Of a DNA stretch of 64,000 bases, positions 2,116 to 64,000 are shown piece by piece. Both the position numbers and the translations under genes were made by a program. The notes beneath the pieces were generated by a model that was not told the DNA's origin, searched no databases, and saw nothing but the letters and a program-made list of their open reading frames with translations. Every line of letters begins with the position of its first letter. Position 1 is the stretch's first letter. Source of the stretch: Candidatus Bilamarchaeaceae archaeon (lineage in GTDB: Archaea > Micrarchaeota > Micrarchaeia > Anstonellales > Bilamarchaeaceae); contig JAWCKZ010000001.1 of the NCBI GenBank assembly GCA_038851325.1, forward strand, positions 35,769-99,768, in the 5' to 3' direction.

Positions 2116-3978
2116 ATGAGAATTCTCACCGTTCACGCAGATTTTATAGAGGTAGAGGCACTTAAAAAAGCAATCTCTGATGCAGAAGAAATAAAAGAGA
2201 AGGGAAAGAAGCGCTATGAGGAAGTGTTGGTTGTTTTTACAGCAGTCGAGGCTGGCGATGAGGATATCAACGGAAGCGCGCTTGCGCTCGCAGATGAAGC
2301 TGCCGCAGTTGCAGACCAGGTAAAAACAAATAGAATACTCCTATATCCATTAGTTCATCTTACATCAAAGCCTTCTGCGCCCAGAGTAGCAAAAGCGGTT
2401 GTTGCGAAGGCAGAGGAAGAACTTAAAAAACGAGGATATGACGCAAGTCATTCACCATTTGGATGGTATAAAGGTTATACTCTAAAATGCAAAGGCCATC
2501 CACTTAGCGAACTTTCGCGTGAATTTGGCGCAAGACGCGCTGTTGAAAAGAAGGAAGAGGTTTCAGAGAGTCTGAAAAAAGAGGCTGTCCTAAAAAGTAG
2601 ATTCTACATCATGGATCTAGATGGAAAGCTGCATGAAATAGAGAAGTTTGATTTCACGAAATATGAAAACCTAAGAAAATTCGCAGCATACGAGACAAAA
2701 AAGGTGCGCGCCTATGAGCATGAGCCGCCGCACATAAAGATAATGAAAGAGCATAGTCTAATCGACTTTGAACCTGGAAGCGATCCAGGTAATTTTAGAT
2801 ACCTCCCAAAAGGAAAGCTCATAAAAAAACTCCTTGAAAAAAGAATAACAGATATCTGTGTTAATGAATGTGGTGCTCTTGAAGTCGAGACACCTATAAT
2901 GTACGATTTCGAGCACCCAGCACTCAAAAAATATCTTAACAGATTTCCTGCAAGACAATACATCGTATTAAGCGAAGAAAAAAAACTCTTTCTGCGATTT
3001 GCTGCATGCTTCGGTCAGTTTCTCATAGCTCATGATATGGTTATCTCTTACAAGCAACTTCCGCTCAAGATGTATGAACTTACGCGCTATTCATTTAGAC
3101 GAGAACAAAGTGGAGAATTGGCTGGCCTGAAGCGCTTGCGTGCCTTTACCATGCCGGATATGCATACACTCGCTGCTGATATGGACCAGGCAAAGGAAGA
3201 GTTTGAAAAGCAGTTTGAAGTAGGGCTGGAATGGATAAAAGGACTCGGACTCGACGCTGAGGTCGGCTTTAGGATACAGGAGGATTTTTTTAACGAAAAC
3301 AAAGAGTGGTATATAAGAATGGTTAGGAAATTTGGAAGGCCTATATTAGTCGAGATGTTCAAAGAACGGTATGCCTATTTCATAACTAAATTTGAGTTTA
3401 ACTTCGTAGACTCGATGGCAAAGGCGAGCGCTCTTACCACCGTCCAGATTGATGTGGAAAACGCAGAGACTTATGATATAAATTACGTTGACAAAGACGG
3501 GCAGAAGAAAAAACCGCTTATTCTTCACGCCTCTTTAAGCGGTAGCATCGAGCGCGTTATATACGCTCTACTTGAAAATGAAGCGATGAAGATGGCCAGC
3601 GGTAAGAAGGCAATGCTTCCCGTATGGCTCTCTCCGACGCAGATTAGGATTATACCAGTAAGCGAAGGCCAACTCGAGTACTCAAAGAAAATCATGCAAA
3701 AGATGGACGCCCACTGCGTGCGTGTTGATATAGACGATAGAAACGACACCTTGGGAAAGAAAATAAGAGAAGCACAGAAGGATTGGATTCCTTACATCGC
3801 TGTCATAGGCGAAAAGGAAACAAAAACCGGAAAACTTTCTGTAACGGTAAGAGCCGACGATAAAAAAATTGAAGTTACACCTGAAGAGCTCATAAAGATT
3901 ATAGAGAGGGAGACTGCTGGAAAGCCATTTGAGAAACTCTCACTACCAAAAAAGCTTAGTGCGAGACCGATCATCTAA
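2116..3978 (+). CDS. thrS: threonyl-tRNA synthetase, archaeal type with N-terminal editing domain
   Basis: 620 aa. The N-terminal ~140 aa resembles the archaeal ThrRS editing domain. A class II core and C-terminal anticodon-binding domain follow (…HASLSGSIERVIYALLE…). Confidence 0.9.
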   Translation: MRILTVHADFIEVEALKKAISDAEEIKEKGKKRYEEVLVVFTAVEAGDEDINGSALALADEAAAVADQVKTNRILLYPLVHLTSKPSAPRVAKAVVAKAEEELKKRGYDASHSPFGWYKGYTLKCKGHPLSELSREFGARRAVEKKEEVSESLKKEAVLKSRFYIMDLDGKLHEIEKFDFTKYENLRKFAAYETKKVRAYEHEPPHIKIMKEHSLIDFEPGSDPGNFRYLPKGKLIKKLLEKRITDICVNECGALEVETPIMYDFEHPALKKYLNRFPARQYIVLSEEKKLFLRFAACFGQFLIAHDMVISYKQLPLKMYELTRYSFRREQSGELAGLKRLRAFTMPDMHTLAADMDQAKEEFEKQFEVGLEWIKGLGLDAEVGFRIQEDFFNENKEWYIRMVRKFGRPILVEMFKERYAYFITKFEFNFVDSMAKASALTTVQIDVENAETYDINYVDKDGQKKKPLILHASLSGSIERVIYALLENEAMKMASGKKAMLPVWLSPTQIRIIPVSEGQLEYSKKIMQKMDAHCVRVDIDDRNDTLGKKIREAQKDWIPYIAVIGEKETKTGKLSVTVRADDKKIEVTPEELIKIIERETAGKPFEKLSLPKKLSARPII

Positions 3979-30502: not shown

Positions 30503-30576
30503 CGGGCCCGACGCGATTTGAACGCGTACCCCAAGGTCCGAAGCCTTGTCGGCTATCCAGGTTACCACACGGGCCC
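30503..30576 (-). tRNA. tRNA-Arg (anticodon TCG)
   Basis: Hand-folded cloverleaf on the minus strand: GGGCCCG acceptor, D-stem with two G·U pairs, anticodon stem CAAGG/CCTTG with loop CTTCGGA, T-arm ACGCG-TTCAAAT-CGCGT, acceptor CGGGCCC and discriminator G. No intron. Confidence 0.7.
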
Positions 30577-30880
30577 TTTTTATGTATTCCTCCTGTTTTC
30601 TTAAGTTTCTTTCTGTTTTCTCTGTTTTCTAAATGTTTTCTATGTGCCGTGGGCTTATGTTTTTCTCAGGCCACGGCGGTCGTGGAGGTTTTCTTACTAT
30701 TTAGGTTTTCTTACTGGTTTTTTAAGTTTCTTTCTGTTTTCTCTGCTTTCTAAATGTTTTCAAGGTGCCGCAGGCTTGCTGTTTCTCTCAGGCTGCGGCG
30801 GTCGTGGAGGTTTTCTTACTGGTTCTTTAAGTTTTTTTCTGTTTTCGCTATCTTTCTCATTGTGTTATATTTAAAAACGA
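30577..30880 (-). repeat. about 2.5 tandem copies of a ~105-nt RNA-gene-associated repeat module, co-oriented with and immediately 5' of tRNA-Arg(TCG)
   Basis: The reverse complement matches the modules at 44599..44717 and 45876..46126 (…cctccacgaccgCCGTGGcctgagaaaaacataagcCCACGGcacatagaaaacatttagaaaacagagaaaacagaaagaaacttaagaaaa…). The second copy has CCGCAG…CTGCGG arms, i.e. two compensatory changes. Confidence 0.8.
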
Positions 30881-42498: not shown

Positions 42499-43062
42499 GT
42501 GGTTGGTATGATAAAGAAGTGCTGGTATGCAAAAGATAGTGTGCCAATGAAAAACGAGGAAACCAAAAATAATGAGAAAAAAATAAGAAAATTGATAAGT
42601 AGCGTTCCAGGGCTAAAAGAAGGATTAATGATTACTGGGATTATGCTTACTCTCCCGTTATGTCAAATCAACGAAACAGGGCGTAGTAATAAATCGTCCC
42701 GACCTTATGTTGTGCAATCCGCTGTGGCTGAGAAGAAGCCACAACCATCGCTTATTTTACACGAAGGAATGCTCAAAGAATTAGTACTCCTTATGAAAGA
42801 GGGCAGTTCTGCCAGTTTCAGGCTAACTGAAAGAACTCAGACTGCGATATTCCTTAAGATAGTCAGCATATCTGAAGAGGGGGTGGACATTGCGCTTGGT
42901 ACAGAAATCCTTGGAGAAAAACCTGCCCGCCAAATTGTCAGAGTCAGTTATGGCGAAGCAGAGCTGGGGAACAACCCGATTAAGAAGCTTGCTGTAAAAA
43001 AAGAAAGCGATGGAGAAGTGACCATTAGAATATTCTTAAACACCAGCTTTAAACCTCAATGA
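42499..43062 (+). CDS. hypothetical protein (187 aa)
   Basis: ORF track only. Confidence 0.4.
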   Translation: MVGMIKKCWYAKDSVPMKNEETKNNEKKIRKLISSVPGLKEGLMITGIMLTLPLCQINETGRSNKSSRPYVVQSAVAEKKPQPSLILHEGMLKELVLLMKEGSSASFRLTERTQTAIFLKIVSISEEGVDIALGTEILGEKPARQIVRVSYGEAELGNNPIKKLAVKKESDGEVTIRIFLNTSFKPQ

Positions 43063-44278
43063 GTTCCTTGAAGAATTTTGGAAGTGCGAAAGCCGCTTTA
43101 TGTATCTCTGGAGTATAGTATTGTAATCCTTTTAACTCCCGCGCTCTTTTTTCGTCAAATTTAAATGGGTCGTATTTTTTTGAGCAAAAAGAAAATCCTA
43201 TAACCCCGCTCGGATAGGTCGGCACATTCGCATAATAATATTTGTATATTGGAAATAGTTTCTTGTTAAAGCATGCCATATCCTTCAAAAGGTCTTGATG
43301 GTAGTACATAGATTCTGATTGCGTTACCACGATTCCATCCGCCCTGCACGCATCTCTCAGATCTCTATAAAAATCCTCTTTGAAAAGCGGTTCTGCTGGA
43401 CCTACAGGATCAGACGAGTCAACGAGTATAACATCATAATAGTCTTTTTTTCCTTTTATGAATTTTGAGCCGTCTTCGTAGAATATCGTTAACCGTGGGT
43501 CGTTGAGTGCACAACTAACCTTCGGAAAATATTTTTTCGCTGCACCTACAACCATCTTATCTATCTCGCACATATGGATCTCGTTAACACACTTATGCTT
43601 TGCAATCTCGCGCACAGCGCCACCATCTCCTCCTCCTATGACAAGAACGCGCTGCGGGTTAGGATGAACAAGCAGAGGAACATGCACTATCATCTCATGA
43701 TAAACAAACTCGTCATATTCGGTGAGCATCACCGCACCATCAAGCACCATCATCCTTCCAAAATGATCTGTCTCAAAAATTTGCATGTGCTGGAAAGGTG
43801 AGTGCTCATCGTGCAATAGTTTCTTAATTCCGATTGATAGCGCTCTCCCTTTAAGCGTCTCTTCCTTTTCCTGGAATGCCGCTTTTCTATAAATCGTGTT
43901 TATCTTGTAATCCGCTGCGCCAAACCATTTTTTCGTAAACTCTGCTGCCTTATAGGGATCAAAGTGTTTACAACTGAAAATGTCAATATATGCATACCCT
44001 GCTTTTGTTTTTTGGTCTATTCCAAAATGGCCTGTAATTCCTGATGTTTCTATAAGCTGAAAAGCAGAGTAGCCTTTAACTCGTGGGTCTTCTCCGAAAT
44101 ATACAATATGTGGTTCACCGTATCTTTTCATATCTATCAGTTTGCACAGTTCTATTATCCACTGCTCGATTGTTTCCTTTGATTCGACTTTCTTAGAGTC
44201 GCACATAATTAGATCAACCGAAGCAAGCATCCCCCATACGCCAAACCTTTTGTATTCGTGTTCTGTATATTCGTACAT
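43049..44278 (-). CDS. speE: fused AdoMetDC-like domain + spermidine synthase (aminopropyltransferase)
   Basis: The N-terminal ~130 aa parallel AdoMetDC (…GYSAFQLIETSGITGHFGID…YAYIDIFSCKHF… versus canonical …ESHISIHTWPE…YAAVDIFTCG…). The C-terminal part is spermidine synthase (…VLVIGGGDGGAVRE…, …VDSSDPVGPA…). Confidence 0.75.
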   Translation of the reverse strand: MYEYTEHEYKRFGVWGMLASVDLIMCDSKKVESKETIEQWIIELCKLIDMKRYGEPHIVYFGEDPRVKGYSAFQLIETSGITGHFGIDQKTKAGYAYIDIFSCKHFDPYKAAEFTKKWFGAADYKINTIYRKAAFQEKEETLKGRALSIGIKKLLHDEHSPFQHMQIFETDHFGRMMVLDGAVMLTEYDEFVYHEMIVHVPLLVHPNPQRVLVIGGGDGGAVREIAKHKCVNEIHMCEIDKMVVGAAKKYFPKVSCALNDPRLTIFYEDGSKFIKGKKDYYDVILVDSSDPVGPAEPLFKEDFYRDLRDACRADGIVVTQSESMYYHQDLLKDMACFNKKLFPIYKYYYANVPTYPSGVIGFSFCSKKYDPFKFDEKRARELKGLQYYTPEIHKAAFALPKFFKELIEV

Positions 44279-44358: not shown

Positions 44359-44510
44359 CCCTAAAACGCAGGGAGGGGGCTGATGTTTTCTTCTATTCCC
44401 CTCCCTTCATTTTTAGGGCTAATTCTGATTCCCTCCCTAAAACGCAGGGAGGGGGCTGATGTTTTCTTCTATTCCCCTCCCTTCATTTTTAGGGCTAATT
44501 CTGATTCCCT
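44359..44510 (+). repeat. two exact tandem copies of a 76-nt unit, each a long near-perfect hairpin (CCCTAAAA…GGGAGGGG…CCCCTCCC…TTTTTAGGG)
   Basis: Copy 1 at 44359-44434 and copy 2 at 44435-44510, read directly. ORF-track entries 44142..44459 and 44383..44628 are translations of this repeat. Confidence 0.85.
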
Positions 44511-44598
44511 CCCCTTTCTGTTTATTTATGTTTGTTTATTTATCTTTTTGTTTGTTTTATGTTTTTGTGTTTTTGTTTTGCGCCGATTTTATTTCAGA

Positions 44599-44717
44599 AG
44601 AAAACCTCCCACGACCGCCGTGGCCTGAGAGAAACATAAGTCCACGGCACATAGAAAACATTAGGAAAACAGAGAAAACAGAAAGAAACTTAAGAAAACA
44701 GGAGGAATACATAAAAA
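44599..44717 (+). repeat. single copy of the ~105-nt RNA-gene-associated module, ending exactly at the 5' end of the candidate ncRNA
   Basis: …gaaaacctcccacgaccgccgtggcctgagagaaacataagtccacggcacatagaaaacattaggaaaacagagaaaacagaaagaaacttaagaaaacaggaggaatacataaaaag. The last ~30 nt are identical to the 30 nt preceding tRNA-Arg(TCG). Confidence 0.8.
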
Positions 44718-44923
44718 GGTGAGGAGAGTAGTCTGCCTTCTGTTGTAGCGGCATTTTACTACGCGGCGTAAAGCCTTGCACAATCATCGAAAGGAAAGCG
44801 TCCGTTTCATCCAAGTCAAAGCTTGGTATCGTTTCTGTTACGCTTTCAGCTCCTTAAGAGCATCACATTCTCTTGTGGGCAGAACTTCCTCCGAATCATT
44901 CGGTGAGCCGCTCTCTCCTCACC
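44718..44923 (+). ncRNA. candidate structured ncRNA (~206 nt) closed by an 11-bp terminal helix; identity unresolved (SRP RNA-like or RNase P-like motifs)
   Basis: 5' GGTGAGGAGAG pairs perfectly with 3' CTCTCTCCTCACC. Internal hairpins include CCAAG-TCAAAG-CTTGG and CCGAA-TCA-TTCGG, plus a GNRA-tetraloop-like …UCGAAAGGAAAGCGUCCG…. No ORF of at least 60 aa on this strand. It sits where the repeat module otherwise precedes tRNAs. Confidence 0.5.
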
Positions 44924-45875: not shown

Positions 45876-46126
45876 AAACTTACCTGAGAAAAACTAAACA
45901 GCTGCCGTGGCCTGAGAAAAACATAAGCCCACGGCACATAGAAAACATTTAGAAAACAGAGAAAACAGAAAGAAACTTAAGAAAATAGTAAGAAAACCTA
46001 AATAGTAAGAAAACCTCCACGACCGCCGTGGCCTGAGAAAAACATAAGCCCACGGCACCTTGAGAACATTTAGAAAACAGAGAAAACAGAAAGAAACTTA
46101 AGAAAATAGTAAGAATAAATAAAAAC
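45876..46126 (+). repeat. two tandem copies of the ~105-nt RNA-gene-associated module immediately 5' of tRNA-Arg(TCT)
   Basis: …ccgtggcctgagaaaaacataagcccacggcacatagaaaacatttagaaaacagagaaaacagaaagaaacttaagaaaatagtaagaaaacctaaatagtaagaaaacctccacgaccgccgtggcctgag… read directly. A TATA-like cttatataaa sits about 45 nt upstream, around 45829-45838. Confidence 0.8.
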
Positions 46127-46232
46127 GGGCCCGTGGCGCAGCCTGGATAGCGCAGCAGCCTTCTATGCGTTTCGAACTTCGTTCAAACCCCAAGAGAGCT
46201 GACGGTCGCGAGTTCAAATCTCGCCGGGCCCG
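46127..46232 (+). tRNA. tRNA-Arg (anticodon TCT) with a 31-nt intron at the canonical 37/38 position
   Basis: GGGCCCG-TG-GCGC-AGCCTGGATA-GCGC-A-GCAGC-CTTCTA[TGCGTTTCGAACTTCGTTCAAACCCCAAGAG]A-GCTGA-CGGTC-GCGAG-TTCAAAT-CTCGC-CGGGCCC-G. The T-arm and acceptor are perfect. The anticodon stem has one G/A mismatch at its base. Confidence 0.6.
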
Positions 46233-48761: not shown

Positions 48762-49604
48762 ATGAGAAGACTTCTACTATCATTGTTGATTTTAGGGATG
48801 CTAGTTCTCATCGGTTGTATTGGTGGCGGCGCAAAGAAATGCCAGACAAATGCAGATTGCCCGCCCTATCAGGAATGCAATGTAACCAGCGGTACATGCG
48901 AACTGAAGCCTGGCTACTGCAACACTGACGCCGAATGTGGCGATGAATTAATGACATGCAATACGAATACCCATATCTGCGAATTTAAAGCTGGAAGATG
49001 CCGGTTTGATAAGGATTGCCCATCATGGCAGGTCTGTAACGCTGAACAAAGATGCATAGCAGCTCCAGGGTATTGTGATTCTGATGCGCAATGTAATACT
49101 ACATTTGAGTATTGTAACCCAACAAGACATACGTGTTCTCCAAAACCAGGTTACTGCACTGCTGACACAGATTGTGCAGGATGGGAAACGTGTAAGATAA
49201 GCGAAGGAAGATGTAGACCAATAAGCGGGAGATGCAATGTAGACGGCGATTGTGAAACCTGGCAACTCTGCGATCTGAAGACGCATTGGTGTAAAGCTAA
49301 ACCAGAGTATTGCATAAACGATGCAGATTGCGGCACATGGGCCACTTGCGATACAAGTACACATAGATGTAGGGCACGGCAAGGGTATTGCTCAATGGAT
49401 AACGACTGCAATGAATGGGAATATTGCAGCACAACTACACGGAGATGCACGCCACGAAAGGATCACTGCAATACAAATGCCGACTGCGGTGCATGGCAAG
49501 TTTGTGTGAACCACTTCTGTGCTGCTAAAACAGGTTATTGCAATACAAATGATGACTGCGTAGCTGGCGAGGTTTGCAATCAGCAAACGCATATGTGCCA
49601 ATGA
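48762..49604 (+). CDS. secreted or lipoprotein-like protein built from about 12 Cys-rich repeats of ~24 aa
   Basis: Signal peptide with a lipobox-like LIGCIGG. Repeated C-x-x-D-x-D/E-C-x-x-W/Y-x-x-C-N/D…C units (e.g. CQTNADCPPYQECNVTSGTCELKPGY). Confidence 0.6.
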   Translation: MRRLLLSLLILGMLVLIGCIGGGAKKCQTNADCPPYQECNVTSGTCELKPGYCNTDAECGDELMTCNTNTHICEFKAGRCRFDKDCPSWQVCNAEQRCIAAPGYCDSDAQCNTTFEYCNPTRHTCSPKPGYCTADTDCAGWETCKISEGRCRPISGRCNVDGDCETWQLCDLKTHWCKAKPEYCINDADCGTWATCDTSTHRCRARQGYCSMDNDCNEWEYCSTTTRRCTPRKDHCNTNADCGAWQVCVNHFCAAKTGYCNTNDDCVAGEVCNQQTHMCQ

Positions 49605-61414: not shown

Positions 61415-61729
61415 TTTTGAACCCGGGTCACAGGCTTTCTTCCCGAACCGCAGGGAACCTACGGTTCCCCTCAGTTTGAGGTTCCTCCTGATCCCCTCCC
61501 TTAGAGAATCCCTATGAGCAACCTAAGTTCTCCTCAGGGCTTTTGATGAAACTTTTGCCCGAACCGCAGGGAACCTACGGTTCCCCTCAGTTTGAGGCTC
61601 TCCCTGACTCCCATCTTTAAGGAGATCGCCTACAACCTGAGAACTCTCTCAGGGCTTTTTGGGAACCTCTTGCTCTTAGAAAACCCAAGAGCATAAGTTT
61701 TCCTCAGGGTTTTGATGAAACTTTTGCCC
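61415..61729 (+). repeat. about 2.3 tandem copies of a 116-nt repeat with a 40-nt invariant core containing a GGGAACC-TAC-GGTTCCC hairpin and recurring CTCAGGGYTTTT elements
   Basis: The core cccgaaccgcagggaacctacggttcccctcagtttgagg is identical at 61442-61481 and 61558-61597. Flanks are divergent. No cas genes and no CRISPR-like spacing. Confidence 0.75.
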
Positions 61730-63362: not shown

Positions 63363-63668
63363 TAATACATATAAACCTTTGCTTATTGCTACACCAGATG
63401 CAGTTTCGGCCCAGCAATTATCAAAATCCAAATGAAAAAATAATGAAAATCAGCATGTGCCAGAATCTACTTTTTTGATGGAAAAATGGGCCCGCGGAGC
63501 CGCCTGATGGCAGTTTCCTGTTCAGAGTTGCCAGTTTCCAGACGTGAAAACGGAGGGTTTTCCGTTCCGGGCAACCAGTTCCCGGAATGCAGTGAAGAAC
63601 GACCTGCCTGGAAAGCAAAGCAAATCTCAAAAGAGCTTACGGCTAAATGGCCTGAAATAAAGCGGGAA

Positions 63669-64000
63669 ATGGAGTTCTTAGGCCGCTATCTGACAAAATG
63701 GAATCTGGTAAAGGCTATAACAATCCTGTCAGAAGCGAGAAAAAGCCGGTTTTTGAGAAGGAAAACACCAAAGTATGGCTCTATGAACAAGGGGTTTACG
63801 GAAGAGGAATTAGAGCGGTTTTTCAGCGTTATAGATGACCCTAAGCTGCATCTTCTCTTCAACTTCCAGGCAATAATGGGGTTGAGGATTGGAGAAGCAG
63901 TGCGGGTCAATATCAAAGACGTAAACTTGAAGACAAGAGAACTCCGCATCTTTACAGAGAAAACGGGCAAGACAGATTATCTCCTGCTGCCTTTGGACCT
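63669..64000 (+). CDS. tyrosine recombinase/integrase, 5' partial (runs off the window)
   Basis: Open frame from ATG 63669 to the window end. …FFSVIDDPKLHLLFNFQAIMGLRIGEAVRVNIKDVNLKTRELRIFTEKTGK… matches the box I region of phage-integrase-family catalytic domains, including the conserved Arg in GLRIGE. Confidence 0.6.
   Translation, partial: MEFLGRYLTKWNLVKAITILSEARKSRFLRRKTPKYGSMNKGFTEEELERFFSVIDDPKLHLLFNFQAIMGLRIGEAVRVNIKDVNLKTRELRIFTEKTGKTDYLLLPLD

What the first reader, a model, noticed from the sequence alone, without database searches (positions are those of the whole stretch)
44359..44510. Exact tandem duplication of a 76-nt perfect-hairpin element between the speE-fusion gene and the ncRNA locus
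The unit CCCTAAAAcgcaGGGAGGGGgctgatgttttcttctattCCCCTCCCttcaTTTTTAGGGctaattctgattccctc occurs twice, head to tail, with 100% identity. Each unit folds into a long hairpin through two nested inverted repeats (CCCTAAAA/TTTTAGGG and GGGAGGGG/CCCCTCCC). It also contains a C-box-like GCTGATG and a D-box-like CTGA about 40 nt apart, so a C/D-box-type sRNA cannot be excluded. A MITE-like element or a transcription-termination or processing hairpin is equally plausible. Perfect identity of the two copies suggests recent duplication or gene conversion.
Basis: seen in the sequence. Interest (0 to 1): 0.55.

Follow-up and report, generated by a model that had tools for sequence, protein, structure and literature searches.

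The report
Duplicated mobile hairpin element in archaea
The two identical 76-base units are a very recent local duplication of one copy of a small jumping DNA element, apparently undescribed, that folds into a hairpin and is shared by many ultra-small (DPANN) archaea; it is not a C/D-box guide RNA.

Summary
In detail: window 44359-44510 holds two exact head-to-tail copies of a 76-nt unit. Two genomes about 98% identical to the window carry one copy at the same site with the same flanks. The tandem is therefore a strain-specific duplication, bounded by CCC(T) microhomology.

The unit belongs to a family I could not find in Rfam, phage or plasmid collections, or the literature. It has an outer stem, an invariant CGCA/YTCA internal loop, a purine/pyrimidine inner stem, a variable apical loop, an invariant CTGAT and a pyrimidine tail. 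A second, older pair lies at window 61442-61618.

A structural pattern found 9 matches among 185,579 reference genomes, all in DPANN archaea, and about 21 real matches in metagenomes. Twelve of 14 stem pairs show compensatory changes.

About half the copies are flanked by 12-47 bp (mostly 16-21 bp) direct repeats of host DNA. One filled/empty site pair proves insertion of a 57-59-nt element with a 20-bp target duplication.

The tail tracks the purine arm in parallel (mirror) sense, as an intramolecular triple helix would. No transposase or reverse transcriptase is associated, so the mobilising mechanism is unknown. The C/D-box reading is rejected.

The parts
44359..44434 (+). Element copy 1 (76 nt). 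Outer stem 5' strand 44359-44366 (CCCTAAAA); internal loop CGCA 44367-44370; purine arm GGGAGGGG 44371-44378; apical loop 44379-44397; pyrimidine arm CCCCTCCC 44398-44405; loop TTCA 44406-44409; outer stem 3' strand TTTTTAGGG 44410-44418; linker CTAATT 44419-44424; invariant CTGAT 44425-44429; pyrimidine tail TCCCT(CCC) from 44430, running into the first 3 nt of copy 2.
   Evidence: covariance-model match 63.6 bits, E 5e-14
44435..44514 (+). Element copy 2, identical to copy 1 over 76 nt and carrying the complete tail TCCCTCCCC (to 44514). It corresponds to the single copy present in the relatives L033 and L034.
61442..61502 (+). Family member B1: CCCGAAC / CGCA / GGGAACC-TAC-GGTTCCC / CTCA / GTTTGAGG / TTCCTC / CTGAT / CCCCTCCC. 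It lies about 100 nt upstream of the start codon of the Rad50-like gene, on the opposite strand.
   Evidence: covariance-model match 76.4 bits; also present in L038, which is 99.97% identical to the window
61558..61618 (+). Family member B2, 116 nt downstream of B1. The units are 82% identical and the tail of B2 is degenerate (CTGACTCCCATCTTT).
   Evidence: 66.9 bits
61533..61558 (+). Upstream copy of the direct repeat CTCAGGGCTTTTGATGAAACTTTTG(C) that flanks the B2 unit (target-site-duplication-like).
   Evidence: (family D16)
61702..61727 (+). Downstream copy of the same direct repeat. A diverged third copy lies at 61648-61673.

Best explanation
The unit is one copy of a small (about 58-80 nt), non-coding, non-autonomous mobile element found across DPANN archaea. 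The window comes from a Micrarchaeota (Bilamarchaeaceae) genome.

SHOWN:
1. The family exists and is confined, as far as sampled, to DPANN genomes.
2. Its hairpin is kept by compensatory substitutions, and G.U pairs favour the + strand as the folded strand.
3. It inserts into chromosomal intergenic DNA and duplicates 12-47 bp (mostly 16-21 bp) of target. The hairpin-side boundary is exact. The tail-side boundary is variable.
4. In this strain, a resident single copy was duplicated in tandem very recently. The 76-nt unit is bounded by the CCC(T) that occurs both at the element's start and in its tail.

INFERRED:
5. The duplication arose by replication slippage or by ligation of a hairpin-protected flap on that microhomology.
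6. The active form is single-stranded. In it, the pyrimidine tail lies in the major groove of the purine/pyrimidine inner stem, parallel to the purine arm (C+.G-C and U.A-U triples).
7. Mobilisation is in trans by an enzyme encoded elsewhere. The junction features most resemble target-primed copying of a + strand RNA or DNA. These are long variable duplications, 0-7 nt of microhomology at the exact end, downstream repeats that often start with T after a T-rich element end, and 5'-truncated copies.

The tandem state itself probably has no function.
For: Tandem and its recency:
- Exact tandem.
- Single copy with identical flanks in L033 (GCA_038890785.1, about 98% identical) and in L034.
- The adjacent protein is 98% identical to one from a 'Candidatus Bilamarchaeaceae archaeon' MAG.

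Family:
- All 9 of 9 genome hits are DPANN MAGs.
- 22 metagenome loci, one of which (L012) is a chance match.
- 33 distinct covariance-model matches.

Structure:
- 96.5% of cells paired and 12 of 14 pairs with changes on both sides; 0 of 500 shuffles reach this.
- 23 G.U cells against 5 A.C cells on the + strand.

Insertion:
- Direct repeats abut the outer stem in about 15 of 30 copies.
- L016 filled against L024 empty: a 77-nt difference, made of the element plus a 20-bp duplication.
- tRNA 3' ends are duplicated at L003, L027 and L028.

Triplex:
- 182 of 211 purine cells obey G->C, A->T in parallel register. Tail shuffles give 160.8 +/- 3.7 (0 of 2000 reach the observed value). Shifted registers give at most 137.
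- Column 74 equals column 98 in 31 of 33 sequences. Two of the three differences between the orthologous copies L007 and L013 are this coordinated change.

Context:
- Neighbours are housekeeping genes, with no recurrent mobile-element gene.
Against: - The window copy at 44359 shows no target-site duplication of its own.
- Copy number is low, at 2-4 detected per genome fragment sampled.
- Elements are 80-88% identical between organisms whose proteins are only about 50-60% identical.
- A copy sits at the same place in the rRNA spacer of two Micrarchaeota. These last two points fit a host-useful element as well as a selfish one.
- No mobilising enzyme was identified.
- The purine core AGGGA is mirror-symmetric, so an antiparallel tail/arm pairing also scores 92.9%. 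The triplex rests on the flanking columns and on a few variant copies.
- A run of C+.G-C triples is unfavourable at neutral pH.
- L028 breaks the triplex rule.
- Sequences are related by descent, so the shuffle statistics overstate independence.
Confidence: 0.72

Rival explanations
1. The element is a host-useful structured RNA module that also spreads. Possible roles are an RNA 3'-end stabiliser or exonuclease block, a terminator or insulator, or a processing signal. Selection on that role, rather than on transposition, maintains the sequence.
For: - The core is more conserved than its surroundings. L007 against L013: element 95%, upstream 400 nt 77.5%.
- The same site in the 16S-23S spacer is kept in two Micrarchaeota, with the core unchanged.
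- About two-thirds of flanking ORFs lie on the strand opposite the element's + strand.
- Copy number is low and neighbours are housekeeping genes.
Against: - No common gene class or fixed distance to a gene feature.
- Presence/absence polymorphism and target duplications show ongoing insertion.
- The better-folding + strand is usually antisense to neighbouring genes.
- No expression data are available.
Confidence: 0.25
2. The element is a retroposon (SINE-like). A + strand RNA with a processed 5' end and a U-rich 3' end is copied into nicked target DNA by a reverse transcriptase encoded elsewhere. The triple helix protects or presents the RNA's 3' end.
For: - Target duplications are variable, 12-47 bp.
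- One boundary is exact, with 0-7 nt of microhomology. The other is variable and T-rich, and 10 of 14 downstream repeats begin with T.
- 5'-truncated copies occur in L027 and L004.
- In L025 the element begins immediately after the discriminator base of a sense-strand tRNA-Leu, and in L018 2-3 nt after it. There, tRNase Z could create the exact 5' end.
Against: - No reverse transcriptase was found among 122 neighbouring ORFs.
- Target-primed retroposons are unknown in prokaryotes (general knowledge).
- Archaeal promoters are external, so most copies would be silent.
- Targets at tRNA 3' ends do not show the T-start rule.
Confidence: 0.25
3. The element is mobilised purely as DNA. Either an unidentified transposase or nuclease makes nicks about 20 bp apart, or the single-stranded hairpin is incorporated during lagging-strand synthesis (template switching or flap ligation).
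For: - Most duplications cluster at 16-21 bp, about two helical turns.
- Insertions recur beside existing copies, and tandem units of about 116-120 nt occur at window B, L026 and L016.
- IS200/IS605 elements, which use single-stranded hairpin transposition, are reported in more than 65% of Micrarchaeota genomes (PMC13343696).
- DDE elements of the IS1202 group are known to make 24-29 bp duplications (my recollection of ISfinder, not checked here).
Against: - No terminal inverted repeats.
- IS200/IS605 elements make no target duplication.
- Outliers of 12, 31 and 47 bp occur.
- No associated gene was found.
Confidence: 0.3
4. Each unit is an archaeal C/D-box sRNA. GCUGAUG is box C and CUGA is box D, and the RNA guides 2'-O-methylation.
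For: - CUGA is invariant in the family.
- An 11-nt stretch ending in the C of CUGA (AGGGCTAATTC) is complementary to the 23S rRNA of another Micrarchaeota, L020.
Against: - The C-like box occurs only in the apical loop of the window copy. Loops of other members are 4-21 nt of unrelated sequence.
- It departs from the RUGAUGA consensus at two positions.
- There is no C'/D' pair, and a 10-bp stable hairpin occupies the would-be guide region.
- The 11-mer match is expected about 0.07 times by chance and is not kept in the nearest relatives L011 and L005.
- There is no complementarity of 9 nt or more to the window's tRNAs or RNase P RNA.
- Rfam gives no C/D match on the element.
Confidence: 0.02
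5. The hairpins are integron attC-like recombination sites for a tyrosine recombinase.
For: - The architecture resembles a folded attC: the outer stem ends ...AAC / GTT..., there is an unpaired central spacer, extrahelical bases and a variable terminal loop.
- A Phage_integrase-family gene lies about 2 kb from locus B.
Against: - Copies are solitary or adjacent, not spaced by cassettes.
- Neighbours are core housekeeping genes.
- Insertion produces target duplications, which integrase recombination does not.
- No integrase recurs near copies.
Confidence: 0.03

Closest known systems
MITEs (miniature inverted-repeat transposable elements) of bacteria and archaea
   Same: Small, non-coding and dispersed in intergenic DNA. 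Show insertion polymorphism. Flanked by target-site duplications. Depend on a function supplied in trans.
   Different: No terminal inverted repeats. Duplications are 12-47 bp rather than 2-10 bp (definition as in PMC11602168). One boundary is variable. No parent IS was found. Sequence is conserved across phyla rather than within a genus.
REP/REPIN elements mobilised by RAYT (TnpA-like HUH) and IS200/IS605-derived PATEs
   Same: A short imperfect hairpin with bulged bases acts as a strand-specific single-stranded signal. Located between genes.
   Different: REP/IS200-type insertion makes no target duplication. REPINs are inverted doublets present in hundreds of copies. No RAYT or TnpA was seen near copies. 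The present element has a single hairpin plus a tail.
SINEs/LINE-dependent retroposons (target-primed reverse transcription)
   Same: Variable-length duplications of about 10-20+ bp. Microhomology at junctions. One exact and one variable end. Truncated copies. A recognition stem-loop near the end. Preference for sites near stable-RNA genes.
   Different: Known only in eukaryotes. No reverse transcriptase partner and no internal promoter were identified here. Only about 60 nt long.
Integron attC sites
   Same: A folded single strand with paired R-like boxes (AAC/GTT), an unpaired central spacer, extrahelical bases and a variable loop.
   Different: No cassette array, no attI or intI context. 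Insertion duplicates the target. An extra conserved CTGAT plus pyrimidine tail is present.
Triple-helix RNA 3'-end elements (ENE with A-rich tract in PAN, MALAT1 and plant/fungal transposon RNAs; from my own knowledge)
   Same: A strand 3' of a hairpin is inferred to fold back into the major groove of a helix. Occurs in transposable-element transcripts.
   Different: ENEs clamp an A-rich tail between U-rich loop strands (U.A-U triples). Here a pyrimidine tail would bind a G-rich purine arm (mostly C+.G-C). Formation is only inferred from covariation.

Membership tests
Archaeal C/D-box sRNA | Box C (RUGAUGA) near the 5' end and box D (CUGA) near the 3' end, able to form a k-turn and conserved among homologues | tested here: not met
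   The C-like GCUGAUG is in the apical loop of the window copy only. The other 32 members have unrelated loops. Only CUGA is conserved. No Rfam C/D family matches the element.
Archaeal C/D-box sRNA | A 10-12 nt guide next to D or D', complementary to rRNA or tRNA | tested here: inconclusive
   One 11-nt match to a heterologous 23S rRNA (L020), with about 0.07 expected by chance. It is not conserved in L011 or L005. No match to the window's tRNAs or RNase P RNA. The organism's own rRNA is not in the window.
MITE | Terminal inverted repeats of at least 10 bp | tested here: not met
   The ends CCGAACCGC... and ...CCCTTCCT are not inverted copies of each other. The only repeats are internal stems.
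MITE | Short target-site duplication of fixed length (2-10 bp) | tested here: not met
   Duplications are 12-47 bp, mostly 16-21 bp.
MITE | Dispersed copies with presence/absence polymorphism | tested here: met
   33 copies in 27 loci. L016 filled against L024 empty.
REP/REPIN-RAYT or IS200/IS605 PATE | Insertion without target duplication; an associated Y1 HUH transposase | tested here: not met
   Target duplications are present. No recurrent transposase among 122 neighbouring ORFs. Whole genomes were not searched.
Integron attC | Located at cassette boundaries in an array next to intI/attI | tested here: not met
   Copies are solitary or adjacent and lie among housekeeping genes.
Integron attC | Imperfect palindrome with R/L boxes, an unpaired central spacer and extrahelical bases | tested here: inconclusive
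   An architectural resemblance only: AAC/GTT, a 4x4 loop and a 1-2 nt bulge. No attC model was run.
Target-primed retroposon (SINE-like) | Variable-length target duplication, junction microhomology and truncated copies | tested here: met
Target-primed retroposon (SINE-like) | An RNA intermediate and a reverse transcriptase partner sharing the 3' recognition structure | not testable with these tools
   No RNA data are available. No reverse transcriptase is found near copies.
Intramolecular pyrimidine-motif triple helix | A homopurine strand in a Watson-Crick helix, plus a pyrimidine third strand parallel to it with C for G and U/T for A | tested here: met
   182 of 211 cells obey the rule. 0 of 2000 tail shuffles and no shifted register reach this. 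Variant copies: GGAGGGGG with CCTCCCCC, and GAGAA with CTCTT. An independent family in L003 has GGGGGG/CCCCCC/CCCCCC.
Intramolecular pyrimidine-motif triple helix | Physical formation of the triplex | not testable with these tools
   Needs melting, CD, NMR or chemical probing. An antiparallel alternative scores 92.9% on the symmetric core.
Archaeal bulge-helix-bulge splicing motif | Two 3-nt bulges on opposite strands, separated by a 4-bp helix | tested here: not met
   On the + strand the unpaired segments lie on the wrong sides of the 4-bp helix. On the - strand the arrangement is 2 nt / 4 bp (with an A.C mismatch in 18 of 33) / a 4x4 loop.

The most novel reading that the evidence does not exclude
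A class of prokaryotic mobile element not described before. It is a roughly 60-nt RNA- or ssDNA-borne module, made of a hairpin capped by an intramolecular triple helix, that is copied into staggered (about 20 bp) target nicks. The mechanism would be SINE-like target-primed synthesis, or core replication/repair enzymes. The module is conserved across DPANN phyla and is inserted preferentially next to stable-RNA genes.
Probability: 0.3. Interest if true: 0.9.

Novelty: new variant of a known kind. Interest (0 to 1): 0.72.

Why it matters
DPANN archaea have about 1 Mb genomes with little room for repeats. Even so, a 60-nt element is kept at 80-88% identity between organisms whose proteins are only about 50-60% identical, and it still inserts.

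Its signatures do not fit any prokaryotic element family I tested. It has no terminal inverted repeats, makes target duplications of about 20 bp, has one exact and one variable end, and has no linked enzyme.

If the mirror covariation reflects a real triple helix, this would be a rare natural case with three-way covariation support, and it can be tested on a 60-mer. If the mobilisation is RNA-templated, it would extend target-primed retroposition to archaea.

In practice, the element breaks short-read assemblies: Logan contigs end in it. It also marks strain-level variation in Micrarchaeota.

Tried and rejected
- C/D-box sRNA: rejected. There is no conserved C box, Rfam is silent, and the guide match is weak and not conserved.
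- Rfam, at gathering and at E<=5 thresholds: nothing on the element.
- H/ACA, k-turn, hammerhead, HDV-like, group II domain V and ORB (replication-origin) readings were considered from the sequence and dropped. The defining motifs are absent (GA.AG pairs, ACA box, CUGANGA...GAAA, and so on).
- Bulge-helix-bulge intron motif: the geometry does not fit.
- tRNA-like or split-tRNA reading. The tRNA-like sequence next to some copies turned out to be duplicated 3' ends of real tRNA genes, that is, target duplications.
- Integron attC: the context is wrong.
- Promoter upstream of the element: a TATA-like TTTAAAT lies 22 nt upstream of the window copy, but there is no consistent box at other loci.
- Associated gene search: all-against-all BLAST of neighbouring ORFs and Pfam on 122 ORFs found only housekeeping families.
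- Phage, plasmid and viral-contig searches: no match.
- Literature: sequence strings and keyword searches found no description.
- Antiparallel tail/arm helix and a UCA/UGA mini-helix. The first is not excluded for the symmetric core, and the second has no covariation either way.
- A regex search for head-only or tail-only fragments was too noisy to use.

Full report
OBSERVATION

Window 44359-44510 consists of two exact head-to-tail copies of a 76-nt unit. Tandem Repeats Finder reports period 76, 2.0 copies, 100% matches and score 310, and the match runs 3 nt further to 44513. A 20-mer from the unit occurs nowhere else in the window, with 0 expected by chance.

Each unit folds into a hairpin of -28.7 kcal/mol on either strand. 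The pair folds as two separate hairpins at -57.5 kcal/mol, z = -4.7.

The hairpin has this layout:
- an 8-bp outer stem (CCCTAAAA/TTTTAGGG, with one extra T);
- a 4x4 internal loop (CGCA/TTCA);
- an 8-10-bp inner stem with an all-purine 5' arm (GGGAGGGG);
- a 19-nt apical loop.

After the hairpin come 6 nt of linker, then CTGAT, then a pyrimidine tail TCCCTCCC(C).

CONTEXT

The window is archaeal, with about 42% G+C.
- The tandem lies 80 nt upstream of the start of a minus-strand gene for an AdoMet-decarboxylase/spermidine-synthase fusion.
- It lies about 200 nt from the 3' end of a minimal (206-nt) RNase P RNA on the minus strand (Rfam, 95.6 bits).
- The fusion protein is 98% identical to one from a MAG named Candidatus Bilamarchaeaceae archaeon, which places the window in Micrarchaeota (DPANN).

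THE TANDEM IS A RECENT, STRAIN-SPECIFIC DUPLICATION

The syntenic locus was compared in two sources. L033 is NCBI GCA_038890785.1 and is about 98% identical to the window over 7 kb. L034 is a Logan contig. Both have exactly one copy, with the same flanks on both sides.

The duplicated segment is bounded by CCC(T). This sequence occurs at the element's first bases (GAA|CCCTAAAA) and again in its tail (TTCCCT|CCCC). The event is therefore a microhomology-bounded tandem duplication of the whole element. Slippage, or ligation of a hairpin-protected flap, is my inference for how it arose.

THE UNIT BELONGS TO A FAMILY

A second locus in the window (61442-61618) holds two older copies, 116 nt apart and 82% identical. 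They share the architecture but have different stem sequences: CCCGAAC/CGCA/GGGAACC...GGTTCCC/CTCA/GTTTGAGG/...CTGAT/CCCCTCCC.

A pattern built only from the shared positions was then scanned across public collections.
- Genomes: 9 stretches among 185,579 species-representative genomes. All are DPANN MAGs: Micrarchaeota, Anstonellales, Iainarchaeum, Nanoarchaeia and Aenigmatarchaeota. My estimate of chance matches for that pattern is about one.
- Metagenomes: a related pattern found 22 loci, one of which (L012) is an evident chance hit in coding DNA.
- Viral contigs: none.
- Phage and plasmid collections: none.

A covariance model built from 29 sequences finds 33 distinct copies in the window plus 26 loci, including diverged ones.

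Rfam has nothing on the element at gathering or at permissive thresholds. Literature searches, by sequence string and by keyword, returned no description.

STRUCTURE IS UNDER SELECTION

On the model-fitted alignment, 96.5% of cells form standard pairs. Twelve of 14 pairs show changes on both sides. No shuffle (0 of 500) and no slid register reaches this. RNAalifold, run on the independent MAFFT alignment, recovers the inner stem.

Outer-stem variants include CCGAAC/GTTTGAGG, AGAGGAAA/TTTCCCTCT, GCGGAAC/GTTTCACG and CCCTAAAA/TTTTTAGGG. A 1-2-nt bulge on the 3' strand is always present.

CGCA, YTCA and CTGA(T) are essentially invariant. The apical loop is free in length (4-21 nt) and in sequence.

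G.U pairs number 23 on the + strand, against 5 A.C cells that would be G.U on the other strand. Eighteen of those 23 come from one column. On this evidence, the + strand is the better-folding strand.

THE TAIL TRACKS THE PURINE ARM IN MIRROR (PARALLEL) SENSE

Arm and tail pair up as follows:

| Purine arm | Tail |
|---|---|
| GGGAAACC | CCCTTCC |
| GGGAAAAC | CCCTTTCC |
| GGGAACC | CCCTCC |
| GGGAGGG(G) | CCCTCCC(C) |
| GAGAAACC | CTCTTCC |
| GGAGGGGG | CCTCCCCC |

A separate hairpin family in L003 shows the same pattern: GGGGGG/CCCCCC with tail CCCCCC.

Quantitatively, 182 of 211 purine positions obey G->C, A->T in one parallel register. Tails shuffled among sequences give 160.8 +/- 3.7 (0 of 2000 reach the observed value). 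Shifted registers give at most 137.

The pyrimidine closing the inner stem (column 74) and the first tail pyrimidine (column 98) are identical in 31 of 33 sequences. T/T and C/C states occur in at least three subfamilies. Between the orthologous copies L007 and L013, two of the only three differences are this coordinated change.

A third strand that is parallel to the purine strand, and carries the same base as the Watson-Crick pyrimidine, is the signature of a pyrimidine-motif triple helix (established nucleic-acid chemistry). I therefore infer an intramolecular triplex.

Four caveats apply:
- The core AGGGA is mirror-symmetric, so an antiparallel tail/arm helix also scores 92.9%.
- L028 violates the rule.
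- Runs of C+.G-C triples are disfavoured at neutral pH.
- The sequences are related by descent, so they are not independent.

IT IS A MOBILE INSERTION

In about 15 of 30 copies, the 12-47 nt just 5' of the outer stem recur downstream of the tail. Most of these repeats are 16-21 nt. The upstream repeat ends exactly at the outer stem, with 0-7 nt of overlap (microhomology). The downstream repeat starts between -6 and +184 nt from the end of the model. It often begins with T and follows a T-rich element end.

The orthologous loci L016 and L024 differ by a clean 77-nt insertion. It consists of a 57-59-nt element plus a 20-bp duplication of TTATAAyTTwTTAATCTCCT. This fixes the mobile unit as outer stem through tail.

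At L003, L027 and L028 the duplicated target is the 3' end of a tRNA gene. In L003 and L027 it starts 1 nt beyond the discriminator base. L003 shows two successive insertions at the same tRNA. L027 and L004 contain 5'-truncated copies.

Several copies lie next to stable-RNA genes:
- L025, immediately after the discriminator base of a tRNA-Leu in sense orientation, and L018, 2-3 nt after a tRNA discriminator;
- L002 and L020, 33 nt upstream of 23S rRNA in the rRNA spacer, antisense to the rRNA;
- the window copy, next to RNase P RNA.

Neighbouring genes are housekeeping: aminoacyl-tRNA synthetases, RNA polymerase subunits, topoisomerase VI, H+-pyrophosphatase and ribosomal proteins. No transposase, integrase or reverse transcriptase recurs.

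About two-thirds of flanking ORFs lie on the strand opposite to the element's + strand (the ORF calls are crude).

HOW IT MOST LIKELY WORKS

Shown:
- a structured element of about 60 nt inserts with a long target duplication;
- in this strain one copy was duplicated in tandem.

Inferred:
- The element is non-autonomous.
- Its single-stranded + form, hairpin plus triplex, is the recognised or protected species.
- The junction anatomy resembles target-primed copying. That anatomy is one exact end with microhomology, a variable T-rich other end, variable duplications and 5'-truncated copies.

An RNA template would make it a SINE-like retroposon. A DNA route is equally open, either through staggered nicks about two helical turns apart or through incorporation at the replication fork. 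IS200/IS605 elements are reported to be common in Micrarchaeota (PMC13343696), but that family makes no target duplication.

A host-useful role cannot be excluded, for example an RNA-end stabiliser or an insulator. It is suggested by conservation at orthologous sites. The tandem state in the window probably has no function of its own.

COMPARISON WITH KNOWN FAMILIES

- C/D-box sRNA fails on its defining C box and on conservation of the guide.
- Strict MITE fails on terminal inverted repeats and on duplication length (definition in PMC11602168).
- REP/REPIN and IS200-type elements fail on the presence of target duplications.
- Integron attC fails on context.
- The bulge-helix-bulge motif fails on geometry.
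- The SINE/target-primed signature is met at the DNA level, but neither an RNA nor an enzyme is known.
- The triple-helix idea has a functional analogue in ENE elements of transposon RNAs (my own knowledge), but with different chemistry.

VERDICT

The element belongs to a family that is widespread in DPANN archaea, apparently undescribed, and unusual in its features.

I rate it as a new variant of a known kind (small non-autonomous mobile elements). There is a real chance, about 0.3, that its mechanism is categorically new.

Noticed in passing
window 44600-44716 (+), 45887-46123 (+, two units), 30576-30849 (-, two to three units); L006 about 3690-3790: A unit of about 121 nt is repeated in tandem directly upstream of two tRNA genes. 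One further copy abuts the 3' end of the RNase P RNA gene and points into it (convergent). Each unit carries a hairpin whose stem covaries (CCGTGG/CCACGG, CCGCAG/CTGCGG; in L006 GACGAAGCG/CGCTTCGTC) around a conserved loop CCTGAGArAA..TAAGyC, followed by AGAAAAC repeats and a TTAAGAAAA box about 25-30 nt before the RNA gene. A homologous unit exists in a different Micrarchaeota MAG (L006), where the hairpin element has inserted into it.
   Followed up: partly
window 44718-44923 (-): The RNase P RNA is only 206 nt long against a 288-position Rfam model (95.6 bits). The P12-like and other peripheral regions are deleted (46 and 39 model positions replaced by 9 and 5 nt). This is a strongly reduced RNase P RNA.
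   Followed up: no
window 46127-46232 (+): A tRNA gene with a 33-nt insertion in the anticodon-loop region, presumably an intron. Rfam finds it (49.5 bits) but ARAGORN misses it.
   Followed up: no
L003 4177-4285: A second, sequence-unrelated element has the same architecture: outer stem GAGCTTTT/AAAAGCT, G6 purine arm, C6 arm and C6 tail. It is inserted at the same tRNA-Thr gene with its own 23-nt duplication of the tRNA 3' end. This suggests that the architecture, rather than the sequence, is what is mobilised.
   Followed up: partly
window 44515-44580: A T-rich run of short repeats (TTTATGTTTG and similar) between the element and the 121-nt unit. It differs by 8-nt and 20-nt indels among the window, L033 and L034, so it is polymorphic between strains. 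It resembles a degenerate inverted 121-nt unit.
   Followed up: no
window 43049-44278 (-): The AdoMet decarboxylase + spermidine synthase fusion (409 aa) is conserved as a fusion in many Micrarchaeota and Diapherotrites-type MAG proteins (P0001-P0034). More distant homologues lack the decarboxylase domain.
   Followed up: no
window 63486-64000 (+), running off the window end: By comparison with L038 (99.97% identical), this partial ORF is the start of a 310-aa Phage_integrase-family (tyrosine recombinase, possibly XerA) gene. It lies about 2 kb from element locus B.
   Followed up: partly
window 48762-49604 (+): A cysteine-rich protein built of 78-nt (26-aa) repeats (TGC..GA(C/T)TGC..). It matches DUF5885 and, weakly, a Dickkopf-like Cys-rich domain.
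   Followed up: no
window about 45043; L033 2132-2319: The relative L033 has an extra 187 nt here, annotated there as a 54-aa ORF, that is absent from the window. This is a strain-level indel just upstream of the RNase P RNA promoter region.
   Followed up: no
L001, L034, L039, L040 (Logan contigs): Short-read contigs of the same population end inside or next to the hairpin elements, so the element breaks de Bruijn-graph assemblies.
   Followed up: no
window 44415-44425 against L020 23S rRNA (about position 914): An 11-nt perfect complementarity (AGGGCTAATTC) between the stretch ending at the C of CTGA and the 23S rRNA of another Micrarchaeota. About 0.07 such matches are expected by chance. 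It is not conserved in the closest family members.
   Followed up: yes
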